Of a stretch of 64,000 bases of DNA, positions 56,600-63,771 are shown one piece after another. Under the pieces are notes generated by a model. The model had not been told where the DNA came from and ran no database searches. It saw only the letters and a list, made by a program, of their open reading frames with translations. Within the stretch, counting starts at the first letter, position 1. Every line of letters begins with the position of its first letter. The position numbers were made by a program, and so were the translations under genes. The DNA is from Felixounavirus LF82P1, in sequence record OZ035762.1. One strand, given 5' to 3'.

Positions 56600-58015
56600 A
56601 TGAGCGAATTATTTAAACATGCGCACCTTCATGCAGGTCGAACTGAAAATGGTGCTGTAAACCATACTTCATCAATGTCTGCTCTTGTAGACTTTTACAA
56701 AGCTGCTGGTTCAAGCCGTAGCAATGTAGAAATCTTACCAGACCTGTTCTACAAAGCTTTGCGTGAGGATGTTGATGTTGCAGTTCGTATTTTACTGCAT
56801 ATGCGAGATGTACGAGAAGGTATGGGTGAGCGTAAAGCCTTCAGAACTGTTTTGCTTCAAGCAATTGAAGATAAAGTTTTAGAGCCTACACAGGTTCTTC
56901 GCATTATGGATAAGATTGCAGAACTTGGTCGTTTTGATGACTTCAAAATCTTCGTAGGTACTCGTTTCGAGACAGATGCCTTCAAACATTTAGAAGCAGC
57001 ATTACTAGACCCTGCAACAGCAGGTTTGGCAGCTAAGTGGTTACCACGAGTAAAACCACGTCACAAACAGTTTGTAAAACGTTTCTGCAAGTTTGCAAAC
57101 TTGAGTGAGAAGGAGTATCGCACACTGTTATCTGCACTGTCTGATACGGTTGAGCAAAAAATCTCTGCTAATGAGTTTGGTAAGATTGACTACAGTAAGA
57201 TTCCTTCACTTGCTGCTGCACGTTACCAAAAACTCTTTAACCGTAAAGATGGAGAACGCTACAAAGCTTACATTGAGTCCTTATCAAAGGGCGAGACTAA
57301 GATTAATGCTGGTGCTGTTTATCCATACGATGTGATTAAATCTGTTAAGTATGGTAATGCAGATGTTGCTAATGAGCAGTGGAAAGCACTACCAAACTGG
57401 ATGGCAGAGGGTGAAAACATTCTATGTATGTCTGATGTTTCAAGTTCAATGTCTTGGGTGAATTTTGGTTCAATTACTGCTCTTGATATTGGTGTTTCAC
57501 TTGCATTGTATGTAGCAGAACGTAATACAGGTTGCTTTAAGAATGAGTTGATGGTTTATTCAACAAACCCTCACTTCATTGAACTGAGTGGTGATTTACG
57601 AAACCGTCATCGTCAGGTGATGCGACACGTTGAATATGGCTCAACTAACTTACAAGCAGCTTTTGACCGTATTCTTGAGACAGGTAAAAGAAACAACTTG
57701 ACTCAGAAAGATATGCCAAGTAAGCTTATCATCTTCTCCGATATGGAGTTCAATCAGGTTGATGGAGCTAACGGTCGTACAAACTTTGAAGCAATTCAGA
57801 GTAAGTACAAAAAAGCTGGATATGAGATGCCACAACTGGTATTCTGGTACTTAGCAAACCGTAATGGTACTTGCGAAGTATCTGTTAAGGATAACGGTGT
57901 AGCAATGGTATCAGGGTTCTCTCCAGCCACTTTAAAAGCTCTGCTTGGTGGTGAGAAGTTTGACCCAATCAGTGTAATGCTCAAAGCAGTAATGATTGAC
58001 CGTTATATCTGGTAA
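56600..58015 (+). CDS. Ro60-like protein (TROVE-like N-terminus + von Willebrand A domain)
   Basis: 471 aa; C-terminal vWA MIDAS motif CMSDVSSSM then ..GSTN.. and ..FSDMEF..; N-terminal helical region resembling TROVE. Confidence 0.55.
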   Translation: MSELFKHAHLHAGRTENGAVNHTSSMSALVDFYKAAGSSRSNVEILPDLFYKALREDVDVAVRILLHMRDVREGMGERKAFRTVLLQAIEDKVLEPTQVLRIMDKIAELGRFDDFKIFVGTRFETDAFKHLEAALLDPATAGLAAKWLPRVKPRHKQFVKRFCKFANLSEKEYRTLLSALSDTVEQKISANEFGKIDYSKIPSLAAARYQKLFNRKDGERYKAYIESLSKGETKINAGAVYPYDVIKSVKYGNADVANEQWKALPNWMAEGENILCMSDVSSSMSWVNFGSITALDIGVSLALYVAERNTGCFKNELMVYSTNPHFIELSGDLRNRHRQVMRHVEYGSTNLQAAFDRILETGKRNNLTQKDMPSKLIIFSDMEFNQVDGANGRTNFEAIQSKYKKAGYEMPQLVFWYLANRNGTCEVSVKDNGVAMVSGFSPATLKALLGGEKFDPISVMLKAVMIDRYIW

Positions 58016-58033: not shown

Positions 58034-58062
58034 TTGACAATGTGTTTAATACCCTTTAATAT
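58034..58062 (+). promoter_or_regulatory. sigma70-like promoter TTGACA-N17-TAATAT upstream of tRNA cluster
   Basis: Consensus -35, 17-nt spacer, TAATAT -10. Confidence 0.5.
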
Positions 58063-58344: not shown

Positions 58345-58425
58345 TTTGACAGAAGACCAAATACAGCAAACTTAATCTTATTCATCTGAAGGTAAATCGG
58401 ACAAAGAAGAGATTTGGTCTGGTCA
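58345..58425 (+). repeat. structured repeat copy 1 (AGACCAAAT ... ATTTGGTCT helix enclosing about 45-nt insert)
   Basis: 9-bp inverted repeat; conserved AGAAGACC..TACAGCAA box. Confidence 0.45.
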
Positions 58426-58433
58426 TTAAGAAT

Positions 58434-58510
58434 TGCGGGTATAGAGAAAGGGCGTCTCACATGTCTCATTAGCATGGTATCGGCAGGTTCGACTCCTGCA
58501 CCCGCCTCCA
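58434..58510 (+). tRNA. tRNA with anticodon CAT (Met/Ile-lysidine type), atypical acceptor
   Basis: D-stem GAGA/TCTC, anticodon stem CATGT/GCATG loop CTCATTA, T-arm GCAGG-TTCGACT-CCTGC, CCA; 1-72 pairing imperfect. Confidence 0.45.
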
Positions 58511-58583
58511 AATTTACAGAAGACCGTTTACAGCAACATTTATTAAATTTTTAGCGGAAAAATTGAAAGATACGGTCTGGTAA
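58511..58583 (+). repeat. structured repeat copy 2 (AGACCGT ... ACGGTCT helix)
   Basis: Box AAATTTACAGAAGACCGTTTACAGCAA identical to copy 4. Confidence 0.45.
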
Positions 58584-58593
58584 TACTAAACAT

Positions 58594-58670
58594 GGTTAGG
58601 AAGCACATAAGGTATGTGCGGTCGCCTGTTAAGCGAATGGCACAGGGTTCGAATCCCTGACTAACCGCCA
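58594..58670 (+). tRNA. tRNA-Asn (anticodon GTT)
   Basis: acceptor GGTTAGG/ACTAACC, D-stem GCAC/GTGC, anticodon loop CTGTTAA, T-arm CAGGG-TTCGAAT-CCCTG, CCA. Confidence 0.75.
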
Positions 58671-58739
58671 AATTTAGGAGAGAAGCGATTGCTCACCGAT
58701 TTGTAAGGTGCAAGTCCTTAGCCTGAATAGAAATTAAAT

Positions 58740-58827
58740 GTGTCGTTATCCCGTAGATGGTAGCGGTGGGGACTGTAAATCCCTTGTCATTGAGACTCGG
58801 TAGGTTCGACTCCTACACGGCACACCA
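58740..58827 (+). tRNA. tRNA-Tyr (anticodon GTA), long variable arm
   Basis: acceptor GTGTCGT/ACGGCAC, anticodon stem GGGGA/TCCCT loop CTGTAAA, variable arm about 15 nt, T-arm GTAGG-TTCGACT-CCTAC, CCA. Confidence 0.75.
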
Positions 58828-58832
58828 ATAAA

Positions 58833-58910
58833 GGTTATGTAGTTTAATTTGGTTAAAATACTCCCCTGTCACGGGAGATGATGAGGGTTCAAATCCCTTC
58901 GTAACCGCCA
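58833..58910 (+). tRNA. tRNA-Asp (anticodon GTC)
   Basis: acceptor GGTTATG/CGTAACC, anticodon stem CTCCC/GGGAG loop CTGTCAC, T-loop TTCAAAT, CCA. Confidence 0.8.
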
Positions 58911-58965
58911 ATTTTGAGAGGGCTATTTAGCCCCTCCCTTAAAGGGTTCTTACGAGTATCCTTTA

Positions 58966-59046
58966 AAGGAGCAGAAGACCAAATACAGCAAGTTACTTAA
59001 AATTTCAAGCCAATTTAATTTTGAAAAATTTAAAACTTGGTCTGGC
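58966..59046 (+). repeat. structured repeat copy 3 (AGACCAA ... TTGGTCT helix)
   Basis: Same conserved box AGAAGACCAAATACAGCAA; compensatory stem changes vs copies 2/4. Confidence 0.45.
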
Positions 59047-59051
59047 TCAAC

Positions 59052-59190
59052 AAATTTACAGAAGACCGTTTACAGCAAAACTTAAACAATCTATTTCTCG
59101 GTAAAGAAAAGGCGAAGGTTCGATTCCTTCACTCGGCAGATGTCGAGTTGGTGTAATGGTAGCACTTAAGATGATAAACAACGGTCTGGT
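59052..59190 (+). ncRNA. candidate Y-RNA-like element: terminal helix (AGACCGTT/AACGGTCT) enclosing a circularly permuted tRNA-like module
   Basis: Order T-arm GAAGG-TTCGATT-CCTTC (59114-59130), acceptor 3' ACTCGGC, 4 nt, acceptor 5' GTCGAGT (7 bp complementary), D-arm-like GGTGTAATGGTAGCAC; no anticodon arm. Confidence 0.35.
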
Positions 59191-59338
59191 AATTATCTTT
59201 GTAGATAAGTTATTAAGCTTACCTGTGAGTATGCGACCACAAAGGGTGAAAGGGTAAATTCTAGATTTAAACCCAAAAAGGCACATCGCTACAGACCTTA
59301 AGCAAGTCTGGGTAGCTTATCTACAAAGATAATTTAAT

Positions 59339-59497: not shown

Positions 59498-59572
59498 TGT
59501 GGGTTAGCATAAATGGTAATGCAAACGGCTGATAACCGTTAGAAGAGGGTTCGATACCCTCACCTACAACCA
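59498..59572 (+). tRNA. tRNA-Ile (anticodon GAT)
   Basis: acceptor TGTGGGT/ACCTACA, D-stem GCAT/ATGC, anticodon stem AACGG/CCGTT loop CTGATAA, T-arm GAGGG-TTCGATA-CCCTC, CCA. Confidence 0.75.
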
Positions 59573-59587
59573 AGTTCAATAAAGTTG

Positions 59588-59616
59588 TTGACATTGAGAT
59601 GTGACTACTTTATAGT
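59588..59616 (+). promoter_or_regulatory. sigma70-like promoter TTGACA-N17-TATAGT inside tRNA cluster
   Basis: Near-consensus -35 and -10 with 17-nt spacer. Confidence 0.55.
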
Positions 59617-59820
59617 AACCTTAGTTTTCGTTGCGTAGCGTCTATTTTGCAAATTTAAAATAAATGCAAACGACAATGTTTTTCTGGCAGTAGCTTGATA
59701 GGCTAAACACCAGTGAGGTCTTCCAATCCCTCATCAAAGAATTTGGCGTACTCGCCCACGGTATGATTAATAAGGTGGGCATCTTTAAGGGCTTTCTAAG
59801 AGAGTCTTTAAAGATAATTA

Positions 59821-59902
59821 CGGGGCGTATCTCAGCGGTCTTCTAAACCGCCGTTAACCGAGTAAGTGGAGTATGCGGGTTCGAGTCCTGCCGCCTCGAC
59901 CA
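59821..59902 (+). tRNA. atypical tRNA-like gene, anticodon loop CTTCTAA (TCT, Arg-type), D-arm apparently absent
   Basis: acceptor CGGGGCG/CGCCTCG, perfect anticodon arm GCGGT-CTTCTAA-ACCGC, T-arm GCGGG-TTCGAGT-CCTGC, CCA; only 7 nt between acceptor and anticodon stem, 23-nt region before T-arm. Confidence 0.4.
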
Positions 59903-60045: not shown

Positions 60046-60128
60046 ATGGGACGATGTTAAGACTCTAAGGCATGAGCAACGGCCTCCAAAACCGTTTCAA
60101 AGGGGTTCAACTCCTCCGTCCCATGCCA
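60046..60128 (+). tRNA. tRNA-Trp (anticodon CCA), atypical extended D region
   Basis: acceptor ATGGGAC/GTCCCAT, anticodon loop CTCCAAA with stem ACGGC/ACCGT, T-loop TTCAACT, CCA; about 8 extra nt before D-stem. Confidence 0.45.
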
Positions 60129-60388: not shown

Positions 60389-60412
60389 AAGACCTTTTAG
60401 GTCTTTTTAGAG
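60389..60412 (+). terminator. hairpin + T-run inside tRNA cluster spacer
   Basis: AAGACC-TTTT-AGGTCTT followed by TTTT. Confidence 0.4.
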
Positions 60413-60487
60413 GGCTTCTAAGGTTATTACAGCTTGTTGTGGAACCTTGTTGCTTAGGTTCTTAGAAGTTCTCTAAAAAGATTTAAT

Positions 60488-60736: not shown

Positions 60737-60811
60737 GCATCCATAGTTTAAACGGGAAAATTACAGTCTTCCAAACTGAGGTTGAGGGTTCGATTCCCTC
60801 TGGATGCTCCA
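60737..60811 (+). tRNA. tRNA-Gly (anticodon TCC)
   Basis: acceptor GCATCCA/TGGATGC, anticodon loop CTTCCAA, T-arm GAGGG-TTCGATT-CCCTC, CCA. Confidence 0.8.
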
Positions 60812-60825
60812 AATTAAGGTGTGAT

Positions 60826-61239
60826 ATGAAAATATGCAGTACTTGCAGAATACCAAAAGATGAAAGCTTATTCCATAAGAATAAGAACAAGAAAGACGGT
60901 CTTCAAAGTCAATGCAAAGATTGTGCAAGACTCCGTGATGCAAAGAGTTATCAAGCAAATGATAAAAGGAAAGAGGCTATTAAAAGCACTCGTAACTTCA
61001 AGAGAGAGCATAACAAGACTCTAGCTAGAAGGTACAAAGCTTTATGCAAATGTCATATATGTGGTGAGAAAGAACCAGTTGCACTGGATTTACACCATAC
61101 AGACCCTTCCCAGAAAGATTTGAATCCTGCATCACTTTATTCATACTCCACAAAAAGATTAAAAGATGAAATCAGAAAGTGCATTGTCTTGTGCGCTAAC
61201 TGTCACAGAAAAGTACATGCTGGTATCATAAAAGTTTAA
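60826..61239 (+). CDS. HNH homing endonuclease inserted in tRNA cluster
   Basis: 137 aa; CxxC..CxxC and HNH motif CHICG..LDLHH..CANCHRKVH. Confidence 0.65.
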   Translation: MKICSTCRIPKDESLFHKNKNKKDGLQSQCKDCARLRDAKSYQANDKRKEAIKSTRNFKREHNKTLARRYKALCKCHICGEKEPVALDLHHTDPSQKDLNPASLYSYSTKRLKDEIRKCIVLCANCHRKVHAGIIKV

Positions 61240-61240
61240 T

Positions 61241-61317
61241 GCTGCTTTCGTATAATTGGCTATTACACATCCCTTGTAAGGATGGAAATGCAGGTTCGAG
61301 TCCTGTGAGCAGCACCA
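61241..61317 (+). tRNA. tRNA-Thr (anticodon TGT)
   Basis: acceptor GCTGCTT/GAGCAGC, anticodon arm CATCC-CTTGTAA-GGATG, T-arm GCAGG-TTCGAGT-CCTGT, CCA. Confidence 0.8.
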
Positions 61318-61412
61318 ATTCAGAGGTCAAGTGAAAGACCGCTGGTGTCAACTGAAGACCGTAACAAATTCCACGGAGTTGAGTTAGCGGCACAACTTCA
61401 GACCTCTTTCAT
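61318..61412 (+). ncRNA. candidate structured RNA (about 95-nt imperfect rod-like hairpin) between tRNA-Thr and tRNA-Val
   Basis: Nested inverted repeats CAGAGGTCAAGT/ACTTCAGACCTCT, CCGCT/AGCGG, TCAACT/AGTTGA, CCGT/ACGG; contains GAAGACCGT box. Confidence 0.3.
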
Positions 61413-61487
61413 ACTCGCTTAGTTTATATGGTAAAACATCACCCTTACAAGATGAAGAAAAAGGTTCAAGTCCTTTAGTGAGTACCA
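61413..61487 (+). tRNA. tRNA-Val (anticodon TAC)
   Basis: acceptor ACTCGCT/AGTGAGT, D-stem GTTT/AAAC, anticodon loop CTTACAA, T-arm AAAGG-TTCAAGT-CCTTT, CCA. Confidence 0.7.
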
Positions 61488-61488
61488 T

Positions 61489-61566
61489 GTTCCAGTATCC
61501 CAATTGGCAGAGGATGCAAGCTCAAACCTTGTACTAGTGACGGTTCGAATCCGTCTTGGAACACCA
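61489..61566 (+). tRNA. tRNA with anticodon CAA (Leu by anticodon), short variable arm
   Basis: acceptor GTTCCAG/TTGGAAC, D-loop AATTGGCAG, anticodon arm GCAAG-CTCAAAC-CTTGT, T-arm GACGG-TTCGAAT-CCGTC, discriminator A, CCA. Confidence 0.6.
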
Positions 61567-61571
61567 ATTTT

Positions 61572-61647
61572 GCAGGATTAGTTCAAATGGATAGAGCAAC
61601 AGTCTACGAAGCTGTTAATAGGGGTTCGAATCCCTTATCCTGCGCCA
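61572..61647 (+). tRNA. tRNA-Arg (anticodon ACG)
   Basis: acceptor GCAGGAT/ATCCTGC, D-stem GTTC/GAGC, anticodon arm ACAGT-CTACGAA-GCTGT, T-loop TTCGAAT, CCA. Confidence 0.8.
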
Positions 61648-61666
61648 ATTTAAAGAGGCTATTTAG

Positions 61667-62224
61667 ATGAGATATTTGAAGTATGCTTCATGGATTTTCT
61701 TAGCTTTGTTAGAACCATTTGCAGCAATCTTAGCAGTTATCTTAGCACCTTTTGTAGTTCCATTTTACAGTGAGAAGAAAGGACACTTACCTTTCGGATT
61801 TAGATGGATGGAAACTTATGACAACCCAATTGATGGTGATGAAGGTCACGTTAAAAGATGGGCTAATATTAGATGGATTGGTAAGCTTGGTGTCTATATG
61901 CAGAGAGTCGGTTGGCTCTGGAGAAACAAAGCTTATAACTTCTCTTACCATGTGTTAGGAAGAGATGTAAAAGATGTTACTAAGTGGAAAGGTAATATCA
62001 ACGTAAGTTCTAACCCTGAAGATAATCAGACAGGTTATCTCCTAATGTGGAACAGCAATGCTTGGGGATTATTCGCTTTTATACCATCAATTAAAATCTT
62101 TGGTAAACAGTTCTACTGGAGAATTTATATTGGGTGGAAGCTAAAAAGTGTTGTCCCAGAAGAAAGAGCATTCTCAAGGGAAAGAGTTATGTTGGCATTC
62201 TTTATTCATCCACTAAGAAATTAA
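61667..62224 (+). CDS. hypothetical membrane protein
   Basis: 185 aa; N-terminal hydrophobic segments. Confidence 0.5.
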   Translation: MRYLKYASWIFLALLEPFAAILAVILAPFVVPFYSEKKGHLPFGFRWMETYDNPIDGDEGHVKRWANIRWIGKLGVYMQRVGWLWRNKAYNFSYHVLGRDVKDVTKWKGNINVSSNPEDNQTGYLLMWNSNAWGLFAFIPSIKIFGKQFYWRIYIGWKLKSVVPEERAFSRERVMLAFFIHPLRN

Positions 62225-62232
62225 AGATTTAA

Positions 62233-62308
62233 AGGGGATTAGTTTACAAGGTTAAAACCTCGGTCTTTGAAATCGAAGAAGTTGGTTCAATTCCAACATC
62301 CCCCGCCA
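62233..62308 (+). tRNA. tRNA-Gln (anticodon TTG)
   Basis: acceptor AGGGGAT/ATCCCCC with unpaired 1-72, D-stem GTTT/AAAC, anticodon arm TCGGT-CTTTGAA-ATCGA, T-arm GTTGG-TTCAATT-CCAAC, CCA. Confidence 0.7.
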
Positions 62309-63747: not shown

Positions 63748-63771
63748 GACGGTCTCTGTGCCGTCTTTTTT
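63748..63771 (+). terminator. rho-independent terminator
   Basis: GACGG-TCTCTGTG-CCGTC + TTTTTT. Confidence 0.55.

What the first reader, a model, noticed from the sequence alone, without database searches (positions are those of the whole stretch)
61318..61412. Rod-like structured element between tRNA-Thr and tRNA-Val
About 95 nt fold into nested helices: CAGAGGTCAAGT / ACTTCAGACCTCT closing, then CCGCT/AGCGG, TCAACT/AGTTGA, CCGT/ACGG. There is no T-loop or acceptor logic, so it is not a tRNA. It contains the GAAGACCGT box seen in the repeat family upstream and lies within the tRNA transcription unit, so it could be a stable small RNA or a processing element.
Basis: seen in the sequence. Interest (0 to 1): 0.4.

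Follow-up and report, generated by a model that had tools for sequence, protein, structure and literature searches.

The report
Conserved small RNA in phage tRNA cluster
An ~86-base stretch between two tRNA genes of a Felix O1-like phage is a conserved, folded RNA of an undescribed family that evolves as slowly as the tRNAs around it, but what it does is still unknown.

Summary
The window is a Felixounavirus. The element (core 61322-61407, + strand) sits in a tRNA-sized slot between tRNA-Thr and tRNA-Val.

**What holds up**
- It folds better than shuffles (z -2.9) and matches no Rfam family.
- There is one copy per genome. It occurs in all Felix O1-like phages sampled and, 83% identical, in the unrelated Avunavirus Av-05, directly after tRNA-Gly.
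- It is as conserved as the neighbouring tRNAs. A 27-nt core is invariant in all but four of the 20 distinct sequences.

**What does not**
- The AAGT/ACTT extension is not conserved.
- The inner helices show no compensatory change. A competing 3' hairpin (GAGTTG/CAACTT) fits every variant.

**Reading**
It is most likely a small RNA gene cut out by the tRNA-processing enzymes, comparable in position to T4 species 1 and 2 RNAs. Expression and function are untested.

**The "GAAGACCGT box"**
The box is real but a weak link. The upstream repeats are a different RNA family: stem + UACAGCAA + CUG. They lie beside a Ro60-fold gene (56600-58015) and look like Y RNAs and like Dictyostelium Class I RNAs. 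The element lacks their hallmarks, and Av-05 has neither that gene nor those repeats.

The parts
61318..61321 (+). Short 5' spacer (ATTC) between the encoded CCA of tRNA-Thr (61315-61317) and the element
   Evidence: The same 3-5 nt spacing follows tRNA-Gly in Av-05.
61322..61328 (+). Closing helix, 5' strand (AGAGGTC)
   Evidence: Pairs with 61401-61407. G-C changes to U-A in the Av-05 clade and to G.U in L045.
61329..61338 (+). AAGT plus a purine-rich linker (AAGTGAAAGA).
   Evidence: The AAGT/ACTT helix is broken at its outer two pairs (5 and 2 of 20 sequences). Two of its bases are deleted in Av-05 and TH18.
61339..61342 (+). Helix 2, 5' strand (CCGC)
   Evidence: Pairs with GCGG 61387-61390. 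Compensatory G-C to A-U in L040 and G.U in L060.
61343..61346 (+). Variable internal loop (TGGT in the window; TTGA, TTTGA or TTGG elsewhere, with a 1-nt length change)
61347..61373 (+). Near-invariant 27-nt core GTCAACTGAAGACCGTAACAAATTCCA, which contains the GAAGACCGT box
   Evidence: Identical in Felix-like phages and Av-05. Its first 23 nt are unchanged in 19 of 20 distinct sequences (L074 has G to A in CCGT). Only positions 61370-61371 vary in three other sequences.
61376..61398 (+). Alternative 3' hairpin GAGTTG[11 nt]CAACTT. Its loop holds GCGG (61387-61390), so forming it together with helix 2 makes a pseudoknot.
Evidence: 100% of cells paired, with G.U / G-C / A-U at one pair and A-U / G-C / G.U at the next. 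It is part of the minimum-energy fold in Av-05, TH18 and L044.
61401..61407 (+). Closing helix, 3' strand (GACCTCT)
61408..61412 (+). U-rich 3' tail (TTCAT) that ends where tRNA-Val begins (61413)
   Evidence: That RNase P defines this 3' end is inferred.

Best explanation
The element is a gene for a small structured non-coding RNA of about 86-92 nt. It occupies a tRNA-sized slot in the phage's tRNA operon.

- **Transcription.** It is made on the + strand with the tRNAs, from the sigma-70-type promoter-like sites at 58034, 58125 and 59588.
- **Release (inferred).** The enzymes that mature its neighbours cut it free. RNase P cutting at the 5' end of tRNA-Val makes its 3' end at 61412. The endonucleolytic cut and exonuclease trimming that mature tRNA-Thr's CCA end make its 5' end near 61318-61321.
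- **Architecture.** A 6-7 bp terminal helix and an inner CCGC/GCGG helix form a scaffold. The scaffold presents a near-invariant 27-nt core, GUCAACUGAAGACCGUAACAAAUUCCA.
- **Likely working part (inferred).** The core is probably the binding surface for a partner. That partner is more likely a host factor than a phage protein, because two unrelated phage subfamilies that share Escherichia hosts keep the RNA while otherwise sharing only a few tRNAs and parts of two genes at the DNA level.
- **Interior fold.** It can take a rod form or a form with a 3' hairpin and pseudoknot. Which one is functional is open.

Shown here: conservation, strand, position and two helices. Inferred: processing, stability and the existence of a partner.
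For: - **Identity of the window.** Felixounavirus, 100% identical to LF82P2.
- **Fold.** z = -2.86.
- **Distribution.** About 253 Felix O1-like phage records and 6 Avunavirus-type records carry it. It is always in a tRNA slot: Thr|element|Val in Felix-like phages, and Gly|element in Av-05 and TH18. There is one copy per genome, and no copy in the T4-like, Stephanstirmvirinae or Hafnia-phage loci searched.
- **Rate of change.** Mean identity across loci is 96.4-97.4%. Flanking tRNAs give 96-99%. The DUF7338 and Ro-like coding genes give about 94%.
- **Cross-subfamily conservation.** The only DNA alignable between the 64-kb window and the whole 121-kb Av-05 genome is five tRNAs, this element (82.8%), most of the DUF7338 gene (73%) and one 290-bp coding stretch. 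The order tRNA-Gly, element, DUF7338 is the same in both.
- **Compensatory changes.** They occur in the closing helix and in CCGC/GCGG.
- **Strand.** G.U pairs arise on the + strand and would be A.C mismatches on the other strand.
- **Not coding.** Loop indels shift the frame, and the Av-05 version has a stop after 7 codons.
- **No signals at the element.** No promoter or terminator consensus.
Against: - There is no expression or end-mapping data, and none was found in the literature.
- The covariation rests on few independent events. Only three lineages differ by more than a few bases.
- The Felix/Av-05 similarity could owe something to fairly recent horizontal transfer of a tRNA-Gly, element, DUF7338 block rather than to long-term selection.
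- No partner is identified. Complementary matches within the window are at chance level.
- The 3' flank in Av-05 is not a tRNA, so the proposed 3'-end mechanism cannot be general.
- PhageMaP on the related phage Bas63 found the tRNA genes mostly dispensable on laboratory hosts (PMC11482910).
Confidence: 0.5

Rival explanations
1. It is a cis-acting processing or folding element of the polycistronic tRNA precursor. A stable spacer hairpin would keep tRNA-Thr and tRNA-Val from misfolding into each other, or offer an entry site for RNase E or RNase III. It would be degraded after cleavage.
For: It lies exactly between two tRNAs with 4-5 nt spacers. Several other long structured spacers exist in the same cluster and in Av-05. 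No trans target was found.
Against: A pure spacer needs structure, not sequence. Here 27 nt are near-invariant across two phage subfamilies while the flanking helices change. Most tRNA pairs in the cluster are only 1-8 nt apart and need no such spacer. The element keeps its identity although its tRNA neighbours differ: Thr/Val in Felix-like phages, Gly/ORF in Av-05.
Confidence: 0.2
2. It is a divergent Y-RNA-like ligand of the phage's Ro60-fold protein (ORF 56600-58015). On this reading it is a shrunken relative of upstream repeats A-D, bound through the shared GAAGACCGU segment.
For: - The ORF is a Ro60/TROVE-plus-vWA fold. The AF2 model has pLDDT 87.9, and the top 12 PDB matches are all Ro60/TROVE proteins, E 7.5e-9 to 1.6e-6.
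- The element is 3.3 kb downstream on the same strand, within the 4 kb typical of bacterial Y RNAs (PMC4201824).
- It shares ACnGAAGACCGU with repeats B and D.
- The authors of PMC11482910 guessed that Y RNAs hide among the Bas63 tRNA genes.
Against: - Av-05 has the element but no DUF2828 homologue (tblastn E < 1 over the whole genome) and no repeat family in its tRNA cluster.
- The element lacks the family's UACAGCAA motif and CUG tail.
- It has no GNCGAAN0-1G motif and no T or D arms.
- No Rfam Y_RNA or YrlA hit appears at E <= 10.
- The 12-nt match scores like shuffled controls.
Confidence: 0.12
3. It is an evolutionary relic with no present function: either a decayed class II tRNA gene or a decayed copy of the upstream repeats, carried along in a tRNA slot.
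For: Slot position, a 7-bp terminal helix and an 86-nt length recall a long-arm tRNA. Pseudo-tRNA-like pieces occur elsewhere in the cluster.
Against: Conservation equals that of functional tRNAs and exceeds that of coding genes. Compensatory changes maintain two helices. No residual similarity to any tRNA was found.
Confidence: 0.08
4. It is a DNA-level site rather than an RNA. It could be the target or a remnant of the neighbouring HNH homing endonuclease, or a recombination site for shuffling tRNA cassettes.
For: An HNH gene (60826-61239) is present in some Felix-like phages and absent in others just upstream. The gene order around the element differs between lineages.
Against: The changes preserve base pairing and create G.U pairs on one strand only, which points to selection on an RNA. 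The element is unchanged whether or not the HNH gene is present.
Confidence: 0.05

Closest known systems
Phage T4 species 1 and species 2 RNAs (rnaC, rnaD)
   Same: They are small stable RNAs of unknown function encoded inside a phage tRNA cluster, on the tRNA strand, directly next to tRNA genes (annotation). By established knowledge of T4 they are matured with the tRNAs.
   Different: There is no sequence or model similarity: nhmmer and model R1 find nothing in the T4 locus. rnaC carries a canonical T arm and the element does not. The sizes are 139 and 119 nt against about 86-92 nt.
Bacterial and phage Y RNAs (YrlA, YrlB) bound by Ro60/Rsr
   Same: Terminal stem formed by the 5' and 3' ends. 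Encoded within 4 kb of, and on the same strand as, a Ro60-fold gene.
   Different: No GNCGAAN0-1G motif, no T/AS/D tRNA-like domain and no Rfam hit. The element persists in Av-05 without any Ro60-like gene. Upstream repeats A-D fit this description far better.
Spacer-derived small RNAs of E. coli tRNA operons, e.g. 3'ETS-leuZ (own knowledge)
   Same: RNA released from a tRNA precursor by the tRNA-processing enzymes, which then acts in trans.
   Different: Those RNAs work by base-pairing with host sRNAs. No complementary target was found here. Host sRNAs could not be searched properly.
RNase P-matured phage RNAs: P1/P7 C4 antisense RNA and phi80 M3 RNA (own knowledge)
   Same: Small phage-encoded non-tRNA RNAs whose ends are made by RNase P.
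   Different: Here RNase P is inferred to act on the downstream tRNA, not on the element itself. The element has no NCCA tail.
Dictyostelium Class I RNAs (Rfam RF01414). These are relevant to upstream repeats A-D, not to the element.
   Same: The phage repeats share the architecture given in PMC7919456: an AAG start, a short stem that is free in sequence and covaries, then (C)UUACAGCAA, a variable region, the 3' stem and CUG.
   Different: Rfam scores are below threshold: 30.7 and 13 bits against a gathering score of 41.5, and several copies get no hit. The element 61322-61407 has neither the motif nor the CUG tail.

Membership tests
tRNA | Cloverleaf with T loop, D arm and anticodon arm, detectable by ARAGORN or Rfam RF00005 | tested here: not met
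   ARAGORN calls nothing at 61318-61412. cmscan of the element alone at E <= 10 gives no tRNA-clan hit. Smith-Waterman scores against all 25 tRNAs are 13-16, below the shuffle mean of 18.4.
tRNA | Encoded 3' CCA after the acceptor stem, as in the phage tRNAs inspected here | tested here: not met
   The tail is TTCAT in the window and CTATC in Av-05.
Y RNA / YrlA (Rfam RF02553, RF00019) | Match to the covariance model, including the T and D arm tRNA-like domain | tested here: not met
   No hit at E <= 10. For contrast, YrlA hits of 39.2 and 26.7 bits appear next to DUF2828 genes in L122 and L176.
Y RNA / YrlA | GNCGAAN0-1G (or GGUCCGA-like) Ro60-binding motif near the 5' end (PMC4201824) | tested here: not met
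   The motif is absent from the 61322-61407 sequence.
Y RNA / YrlA | Encoded within about 4 kb of a Ro60 orthologue, on the same strand | tested here: inconclusive
   Met in the window: the Ro60-fold ORF ends at 58015 and the element starts at 61322. Not met in Av-05, which has no homologue at tblastn E < 1 over 120,938 bp.
Y RNA / YrlA | Physical binding to the Ro60-type protein | not testable with these tools
   Needs RIP/CLIP or in-vitro binding.
Phage stem-UACAGCAA-CUG repeats (window A-D; Class I-like) | (U)UACAGCAA directly after the 5' strand of the closing stem | tested here: not met
   The element has GUAACAAAU at the corresponding place. The motif is present in A-D, in FBKp34 and in many DUF2828 loci.
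Phage stem-UACAGCAA-CUG repeats | 3' strand of the stem followed by CUG(A/G) | tested here: not met
   ACGG is followed by AGUUG, and the outer stem by UUCAU. Compare.
Phage stem-UACAGCAA-CUG repeats | Shared 5' arm sequence (GAAGACCGU) with repeats B and D | tested here: inconclusive
   An 11-of-12 nt match is present. Its score of 19 is within the shuffle range of 18.4 +/- 2.4. Av-05 keeps it without having the family.
Intrinsic terminator | G+C-rich hairpin followed by a T run | tested here: not met
   The scan finds none at 61300-61420, and tRNA genes follow without a promoter in between.
T4 rnaC / rnaD | Sequence or structure homology | tested here: not met
   nhmmer and model R1 give no hit in the T4 locus L063.
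T4 rnaC / rnaD | Non-tRNA gene embedded in a phage tRNA cluster on the tRNA strand | tested here: met
   That it forms a stable RNA was not tested.

The most novel reading that the evidence does not exclude
The element is a bistable or pseudoknotted RNA that switches between the rod and a tRNA-like fold. In the second fold a 7-bp acceptor-like stem stacks on the 3' hairpin, and that hairpin's loop pairs with the upstream CCGC. The RNA would then act in trans on an enterobacterial host factor, for example as a decoy for an RNA-targeting defence or RNase. Alternatively it is a second, motif-less class of ligand for the phage Ro60-like particle. Either way it would be a new functional phage RNA family, exchanged between Ounavirinae and Avunavirus.
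Probability: 0.15. Interest if true: 0.65.

Novelty: new member of a known kind. Interest (0 to 1): 0.42.

Why it matters
Large lytic phages carry tRNA clusters, and the non-tRNA content of those clusters is almost never annotated. This element is a clean, testable case. It is one copy per genome and tRNA-like in its conservation. It is shared by two phage subfamilies that otherwise share only a few tRNAs and parts of two genes at the DNA level. That pattern suggests a function tied to the common host.

The neighbouring repeats look like the missing RNA partners of a Ro60-fold phage protein that has been reported to counter the ppl defence system. They also resemble an RNA class so far thought to be unique to social amoebae.

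Tried and rejected
- **Rfam.** The whole cluster and the element alone at E <= 10 gave only chance snoRNA fragments on the minus strand.
- **tRNA or pseudo-tRNA origin.** ARAGORN, Rfam and Smith-Waterman against all 25 tRNAs show nothing above shuffles.
- **Small ORF.** An 18-codon GTG frame exists in the window. A 1-nt loop indel in many relatives shifts it, and the Av-05 version stops after 7 codons. The 55-aa minus-strand ORF 61226-61393 runs antisense through tRNA-Thr.
- **Promoter or terminator.** None at the element.
- **Antisense targets within the window.** 10-11-mers occur at the chance rate.
- **More distant homologues.** nhmmer and covariance model R1 were run over T4-like DUF7338 loci, FBKp34, Hafnia phage Zyzzx, T4 and the whole Av-05 genome. 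Only the known single copies came up.
- **Collection scans.** Two IMG/VR pattern scans and one metagenome scan yielded only Felix-like and Avunavirus copies plus a few chance hits.
- **Homology to T4 rnaC/rnaD.** None.
- **Ro60-like gene in Av-05.** tblastn and Pfam on five neighbouring ORFs found nothing.
- **Literature.** No Felix O1 transcriptome or small-RNA data.
- **Dictyostelium link.** I could not check whether Dictyostelium encodes a DUF2828 protein. The afdb50 library was unavailable, and the literature only says that the Class I-interacting protein DDB_G0281243 has unknown function.
- **Alignment artefact.** MAFFT alignment A3 mis-registered CCGC in Av-05. The model-based alignment A4 was used for the pair counts instead.

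Full report
**Context**

The window is a Felixounavirus. Positions 60800-62300 are 100% identical to Felixounavirus LF82P2 and about 97% identical to Salmonella phage Felix O1. ARAGORN finds 25 tRNA genes, all on the + strand, between 58181 and 63585. The finding lies between tRNA-Thr(tgt), whose encoded CCA ends at 61317, and tRNA-Val(tac), which starts at 61413.

Promoter-like sigma-70 sites lie at 58034, 58125 and 59588. There is no promoter or terminator consensus at the element. The only clear hairpin-plus-T-run terminator match on the + strand is at 63748. Co-transcription with the tRNAs is therefore the natural reading, but I found no transcript data.

**The observation**

RNAfold gives the same rod as the minimum-energy structure: -30.7 kcal/mol, 25% of the ensemble, z = -2.86, with 3 of 200 dinucleotide shuffles folding as well. 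The minus strand folds equally well (z = -3.3), so energy does not identify the strand.

No Rfam family matches, either in the 6.5-kb cluster or in the element alone at E <= 10. The element has no tRNA features and no residual similarity to any of the 25 tRNAs.

**Distribution**

blastn finds the element in 259 phage records. About 253 are Felix O1-like Ounavirinae (Felixounavirus, Mooglevirus, Suspvirus), where it is always Thr|element|Val. Six are Avunavirus-type Vequintavirinae (Av-05, TH18 and relatives), at 81-83% identity.

In Av-05 the element follows tRNA-Gly(tcc) by 5 nt. It precedes a 75-aa ORF and a DUF7338 gene. A metagenome scan added a third, more divergent Felix-like lineage, L044, and several point variants.

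nhmmer and a covariance model (R1) find exactly one copy per genome. They find none in T4-like phages that share DUF7338, in Klebsiella phage FBKp34, in Hafnia phage Zyzzx, or in T4.

A direct comparison of the 64-kb window with the whole 121-kb Av-05 genome shows how unusual the sharing is. The only alignable DNA is:
- five tRNAs, at 79-88.5% identity;
- this element, at 82.8%;
- most of the DUF7338 gene, at 73%;
- one 290-bp coding stretch.

The order tRNA-Gly, element, DUF7338 is the same in both genomes.

**Constraint**

Across the loci held, the element's mean identity to the window copy is 96.4-97.4%. The flanking tRNAs give 96-99%. The DUF7338 and Ro-like coding genes give about 94%.

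A 27-nt core, GTCAACTGAAGACCGTAACAAATTCCA (61347-61373), is identical in Felix-like phages and Av-05. Its first 23 nt are unchanged in 19 of 20 distinct sequences; the exception, L074, has a G-to-A change in CCGT. Positions 61370-61371 vary in three other sequences.

The element is not coding. The internal loop at 61343-61346 varies in length by 1 nt, which would shift any frame, and the Av-05 version has a stop after seven codons.

**Structure**

Pair counts were made on the model-based alignment A4, which holds 20 distinct sequences.

- **Closing helix (61322-61328 / 61401-61407).** It shows a G-C to U-A double transversion in the Av-05 clade and one G.U variant.
- **CCGC/GCGG (61339-61342 / 61387-61390).** L040 has G-C to A-U. 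It differs from its nearest relative at just those two positions. L060 has the G.U intermediate.
- **AAGT/ACTT.** It is broken in 5 of 20 sequences at its outermost pair and in 2 of 20 at the next. Two of its bases are deleted in Av-05 and TH18.
- **TCAACT/AGTTGA and CCGT/ACGG.** These lie mostly in the near-invariant core and show no compensatory change. They tolerate G.U substitutions and have breaks at terminal pairs.

A competing hairpin, GAGTTG (61376-61381) / CAACTT (61393-61398), is paired in every sequence. One of its pairs shows G.U, G-C and A-U. The next shows A-U, G-C and G.U. This evidence is weaker than it looks. Any transition at a G.U pair restores a Watson-Crick pair, and the one double change lies in the fast-changing 3' part of Av-05.

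This hairpin excludes TCAACT/AGTTGA, and its loop carries the GCGG of helix 2. If both form, the fold is a pseudoknot. The rod is the minimum-energy fold in mainstream Felix-like sequences (-25 to -34 kcal/mol). The 3' hairpin appears in the minimum-energy fold of Av-05, TH18 and L044. I therefore report the interior as unresolved and possibly bistable.

G.U pairs created by substitution lie on the + strand and would be A.C mismatches on the other strand. That favours an RNA read in the tRNA direction.

**What it most likely is**

The best-supported reading is a small RNA gene in a tRNA slot. It would be released by the enzymes that mature its neighbours, and its near-invariant core would be displayed on a helical scaffold.

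RNase P cutting at the 5' end of tRNA-Val, and endonucleolytic plus exonucleolytic maturation of the tRNA-Thr 3' end, are established for E. coli tRNA operons. Applying them here is inference. The closest precedent in kind is T4 species 1 and 2 RNAs, which sit in the T4 tRNA cluster. There is no homology to them.

The partner of the core is unknown. Two unrelated phage subfamilies with common Escherichia hosts keep the RNA, while the related Hafnia phage locus examined lacks it. I therefore favour a host factor, with low confidence.

The rivals are:
- a purely cis-acting processing spacer, which does not explain 27 near-invariant bases or the change of neighbours;
- a Y-RNA-like ligand of the phage Ro60-like protein;
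- a functionless relic, which is contradicted by tRNA-level conservation and maintained pairs;
- a DNA-level site, which is contradicted by strand-specific G.U pairs.

**The "GAAGACCGT box" and the upstream repeats**

The box occurs four times in the window against 0.21 expected. Two of those occurrences are the paralogous repeats B and D. The 12-nt match between the element and B or D scores 19, within the range of shuffled controls.

The upstream repeats are A 58350-58422, B 58517-58580, C 58972-59049 and D 59059-59189. They form a distinct family:
- a closing stem whose sequence covaries between copies (ACCAAA/UUUGGU versus GACCGU/ACGGUC);
- then (U)UACAGCAA;
- then a variable interior;
- then the 3' strand followed by CUG(G).

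Copy D contains a permuted tRNA-like insert: a T arm GAAGGTTCGATTCCTTC, an acceptor-like hairpin, and a D arm GTGTAATGGTAGCAC. That is the V-T-AS-D layout described for YrlA Y RNAs (PMC4201824).

The gene directly upstream (56600-58015) carries DUF2828 and DUF7788. Its AlphaFold model (pLDDT 87.9) matches only Ro60/TROVE proteins at the top of a PDB search, E 7.5e-9 to 1.6e-6. This agrees with PMC11482910, which reports that Bas63 gp130 is Ro60-like, lies just upstream of the tRNA genes and counters the ppl defence system. Its authors guessed that some of the "tRNAs" might be Y RNAs.

The same arrangement occurs in Klebsiella phage FBKp34, where the protein is 52% identical. There the DUF2828 gene is followed by a promoter-like TTGACA sequence, then by stem-UACAGCAA units, one of which has a T/AS/D insert, and then by the tRNAs.

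Seventy-five IMG/VR loci carry homologues at 38-47% identity.
- TACAGCA occurs 106 times on the gene strand, 50 times on the other strand, and 39 times by expectation.
- The copies cluster mostly within about 500 nt of either end of the gene, often as tandem pairs. Many are closed by a stem followed by UG.
- Rfam YrlA gives sub-threshold hits beside two of these genes, at 39.2 and 26.7 bits.

The architecture also matches that published for Dictyostelium Class I RNAs: an AAG start, a 6-bp stem that is free in sequence, an 11-nt motif that reads CCUUACAGCAA in the Rfam consensus, a variable region, and a CUGU end. That class has been described as unique to Dictyostelia (PMC7919456). Rfam RF01414 gives only sub-threshold hits: 30.7 bits in L146 and 13 bits in repeat D, against a gathering score of 41.5. 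It gives none for the copies in L168. This resemblance is a lead, not a membership.

**Why the element is not filed with the repeats**

The element lacks UACAGCAA, the CUG tail, the Y-RNA motif and any tRNA-like arms. Av-05 carries the element but has no DUF2828 homologue anywhere in its genome and no such repeats in its tRNA cluster. A shared origin of the 5' arm, or binding by the Ro60-like protein, cannot be excluded. I give it about 0.12.

**Verdict**

The interpretation "stable small RNA or processing element" is reasonable but untested at the RNA level. The element is an undescribed member of a known kind, the non-tRNA RNAs embedded in phage tRNA clusters. It is of moderate interest in itself. 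The more surprising result lies next door, in the Ro60-associated repeat family.

Noticed in passing
window 56600-58015 (+) and 58350-59189 (+): A Ro60-fold gene (DUF2828 + DUF7788; top 12 PDB fold matches are all Ro60/TROVE proteins) is followed by four repeats, A-D. Each repeat has a covarying closing stem, then (U)UACAGCAA, a variable interior, and the 3' stem followed by CUG. These are probably the Y-RNA-type partners of that protein, which PMC11482910 only guessed at for phage Bas63.
   Followed up: partly
window 59059-59189 (+); L038 9688-9811; L122 3865-3927; L176 3715-3780: One repeat per phage carries a permuted tRNA-like insert: a T arm, an acceptor-like hairpin and a D arm. That is the YrlA architecture. 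Rfam YrlA gives sub-threshold hits of 39.2 and 26.7 bits in two metagenomic phages.
   Followed up: partly
L108-L182 (75 IMG/VR loci with DUF2828 homologues); L038 9528-10070: The UACAGCA motif is enriched on the gene strand: 106 occurrences against 50 on the other strand and 39 expected. The copies cluster mostly within about 500 nt of either end of the DUF2828 gene, often in tandem pairs about 60 nt apart, across very diverse phages.
   Followed up: partly
window 59064-59188; L146 5692-5749: These phage repeats share the published architecture of Dictyostelium Class I RNAs: an AAG start, a 6-bp stem, CCUUACAGCAA, a variable region and a CUGU end. That class is reported as unique to Dictyostelia. 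Rfam RF01414 hits are sub-threshold (13 and 30.7 bits, gathering score 41.5). One Class I-interacting protein, DDB_G0281243, has no known function. I could not check whether it is DUF2828-like.
   Followed up: partly
window 59821-59899 (+), 60048-60122 (+), 59515-59819 (+): ARAGORN does not call a tRNA at 59821-59899, but Rfam scores it 31.7 bits as tRNA, above the gathering score of 29. There is also a weak tRNA-Sec-like hit at 60048-60122 and weak tmRNA-like hits in the 569-nt gap after tRNA-Ile. The related contig L044 has a tRNA-Arg(tct) in the corresponding interval between tRNA-Ile and tRNA-Ser.
   Followed up: no
window 60397-60486 and 59191-59334: Two long inverted repeats lie inside the tRNA cluster. 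One has 26-nt arms, 85% complementary, 38 nt apart. The other has 22-nt arms, 95% complementary, 100 nt apart. They are further candidate structured RNAs.
   Followed up: no
window 58671-58739 (+): The 69-nt spacer between tRNA-Asn and tRNA-Tyr folds well (z = -2.64, 0 of 200 shuffles as good). It contains a T-arm-like AAGGTGCAAGTCCTT, so it may be a tRNA remnant.
   Followed up: no
window 60826-61239 (+); L001 4268-4381: The HNH endonuclease gene between tRNA-Gly and tRNA-Thr is present in some Felix-like phages and absent in others, where Gly and Thr are 6 nt apart. Felix O1 itself has an extra insert of about 110 nt, containing a small ORF, between tRNA-Leu(caa) and tRNA-Arg.
   Followed up: partly
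window 61667-62224 (+); L037 5001-5567: The DUF7338 gene downstream of the element recurs in T4-like phages (RB43, Klebsiella and Enterobacter phages) at about 55-60% identity. In RB43 it lies about 900 nt downstream of a tRNA-Ile gene, in the same 10-kb stretch as rnlA and pseT.
   Followed up: no
L003 2771-2919 (Av-05): The spacer between tRNA-Tyr and tRNA-Gly in Av-05 holds a hairpin of about 60 nt (GTACTGGC...GCCAGTAC). It is followed by a tRNA-like sequence ending in CCA that has a GAT anticodon-like loop and an aberrant T loop. ARAGORN does not call it.
   Followed up: no
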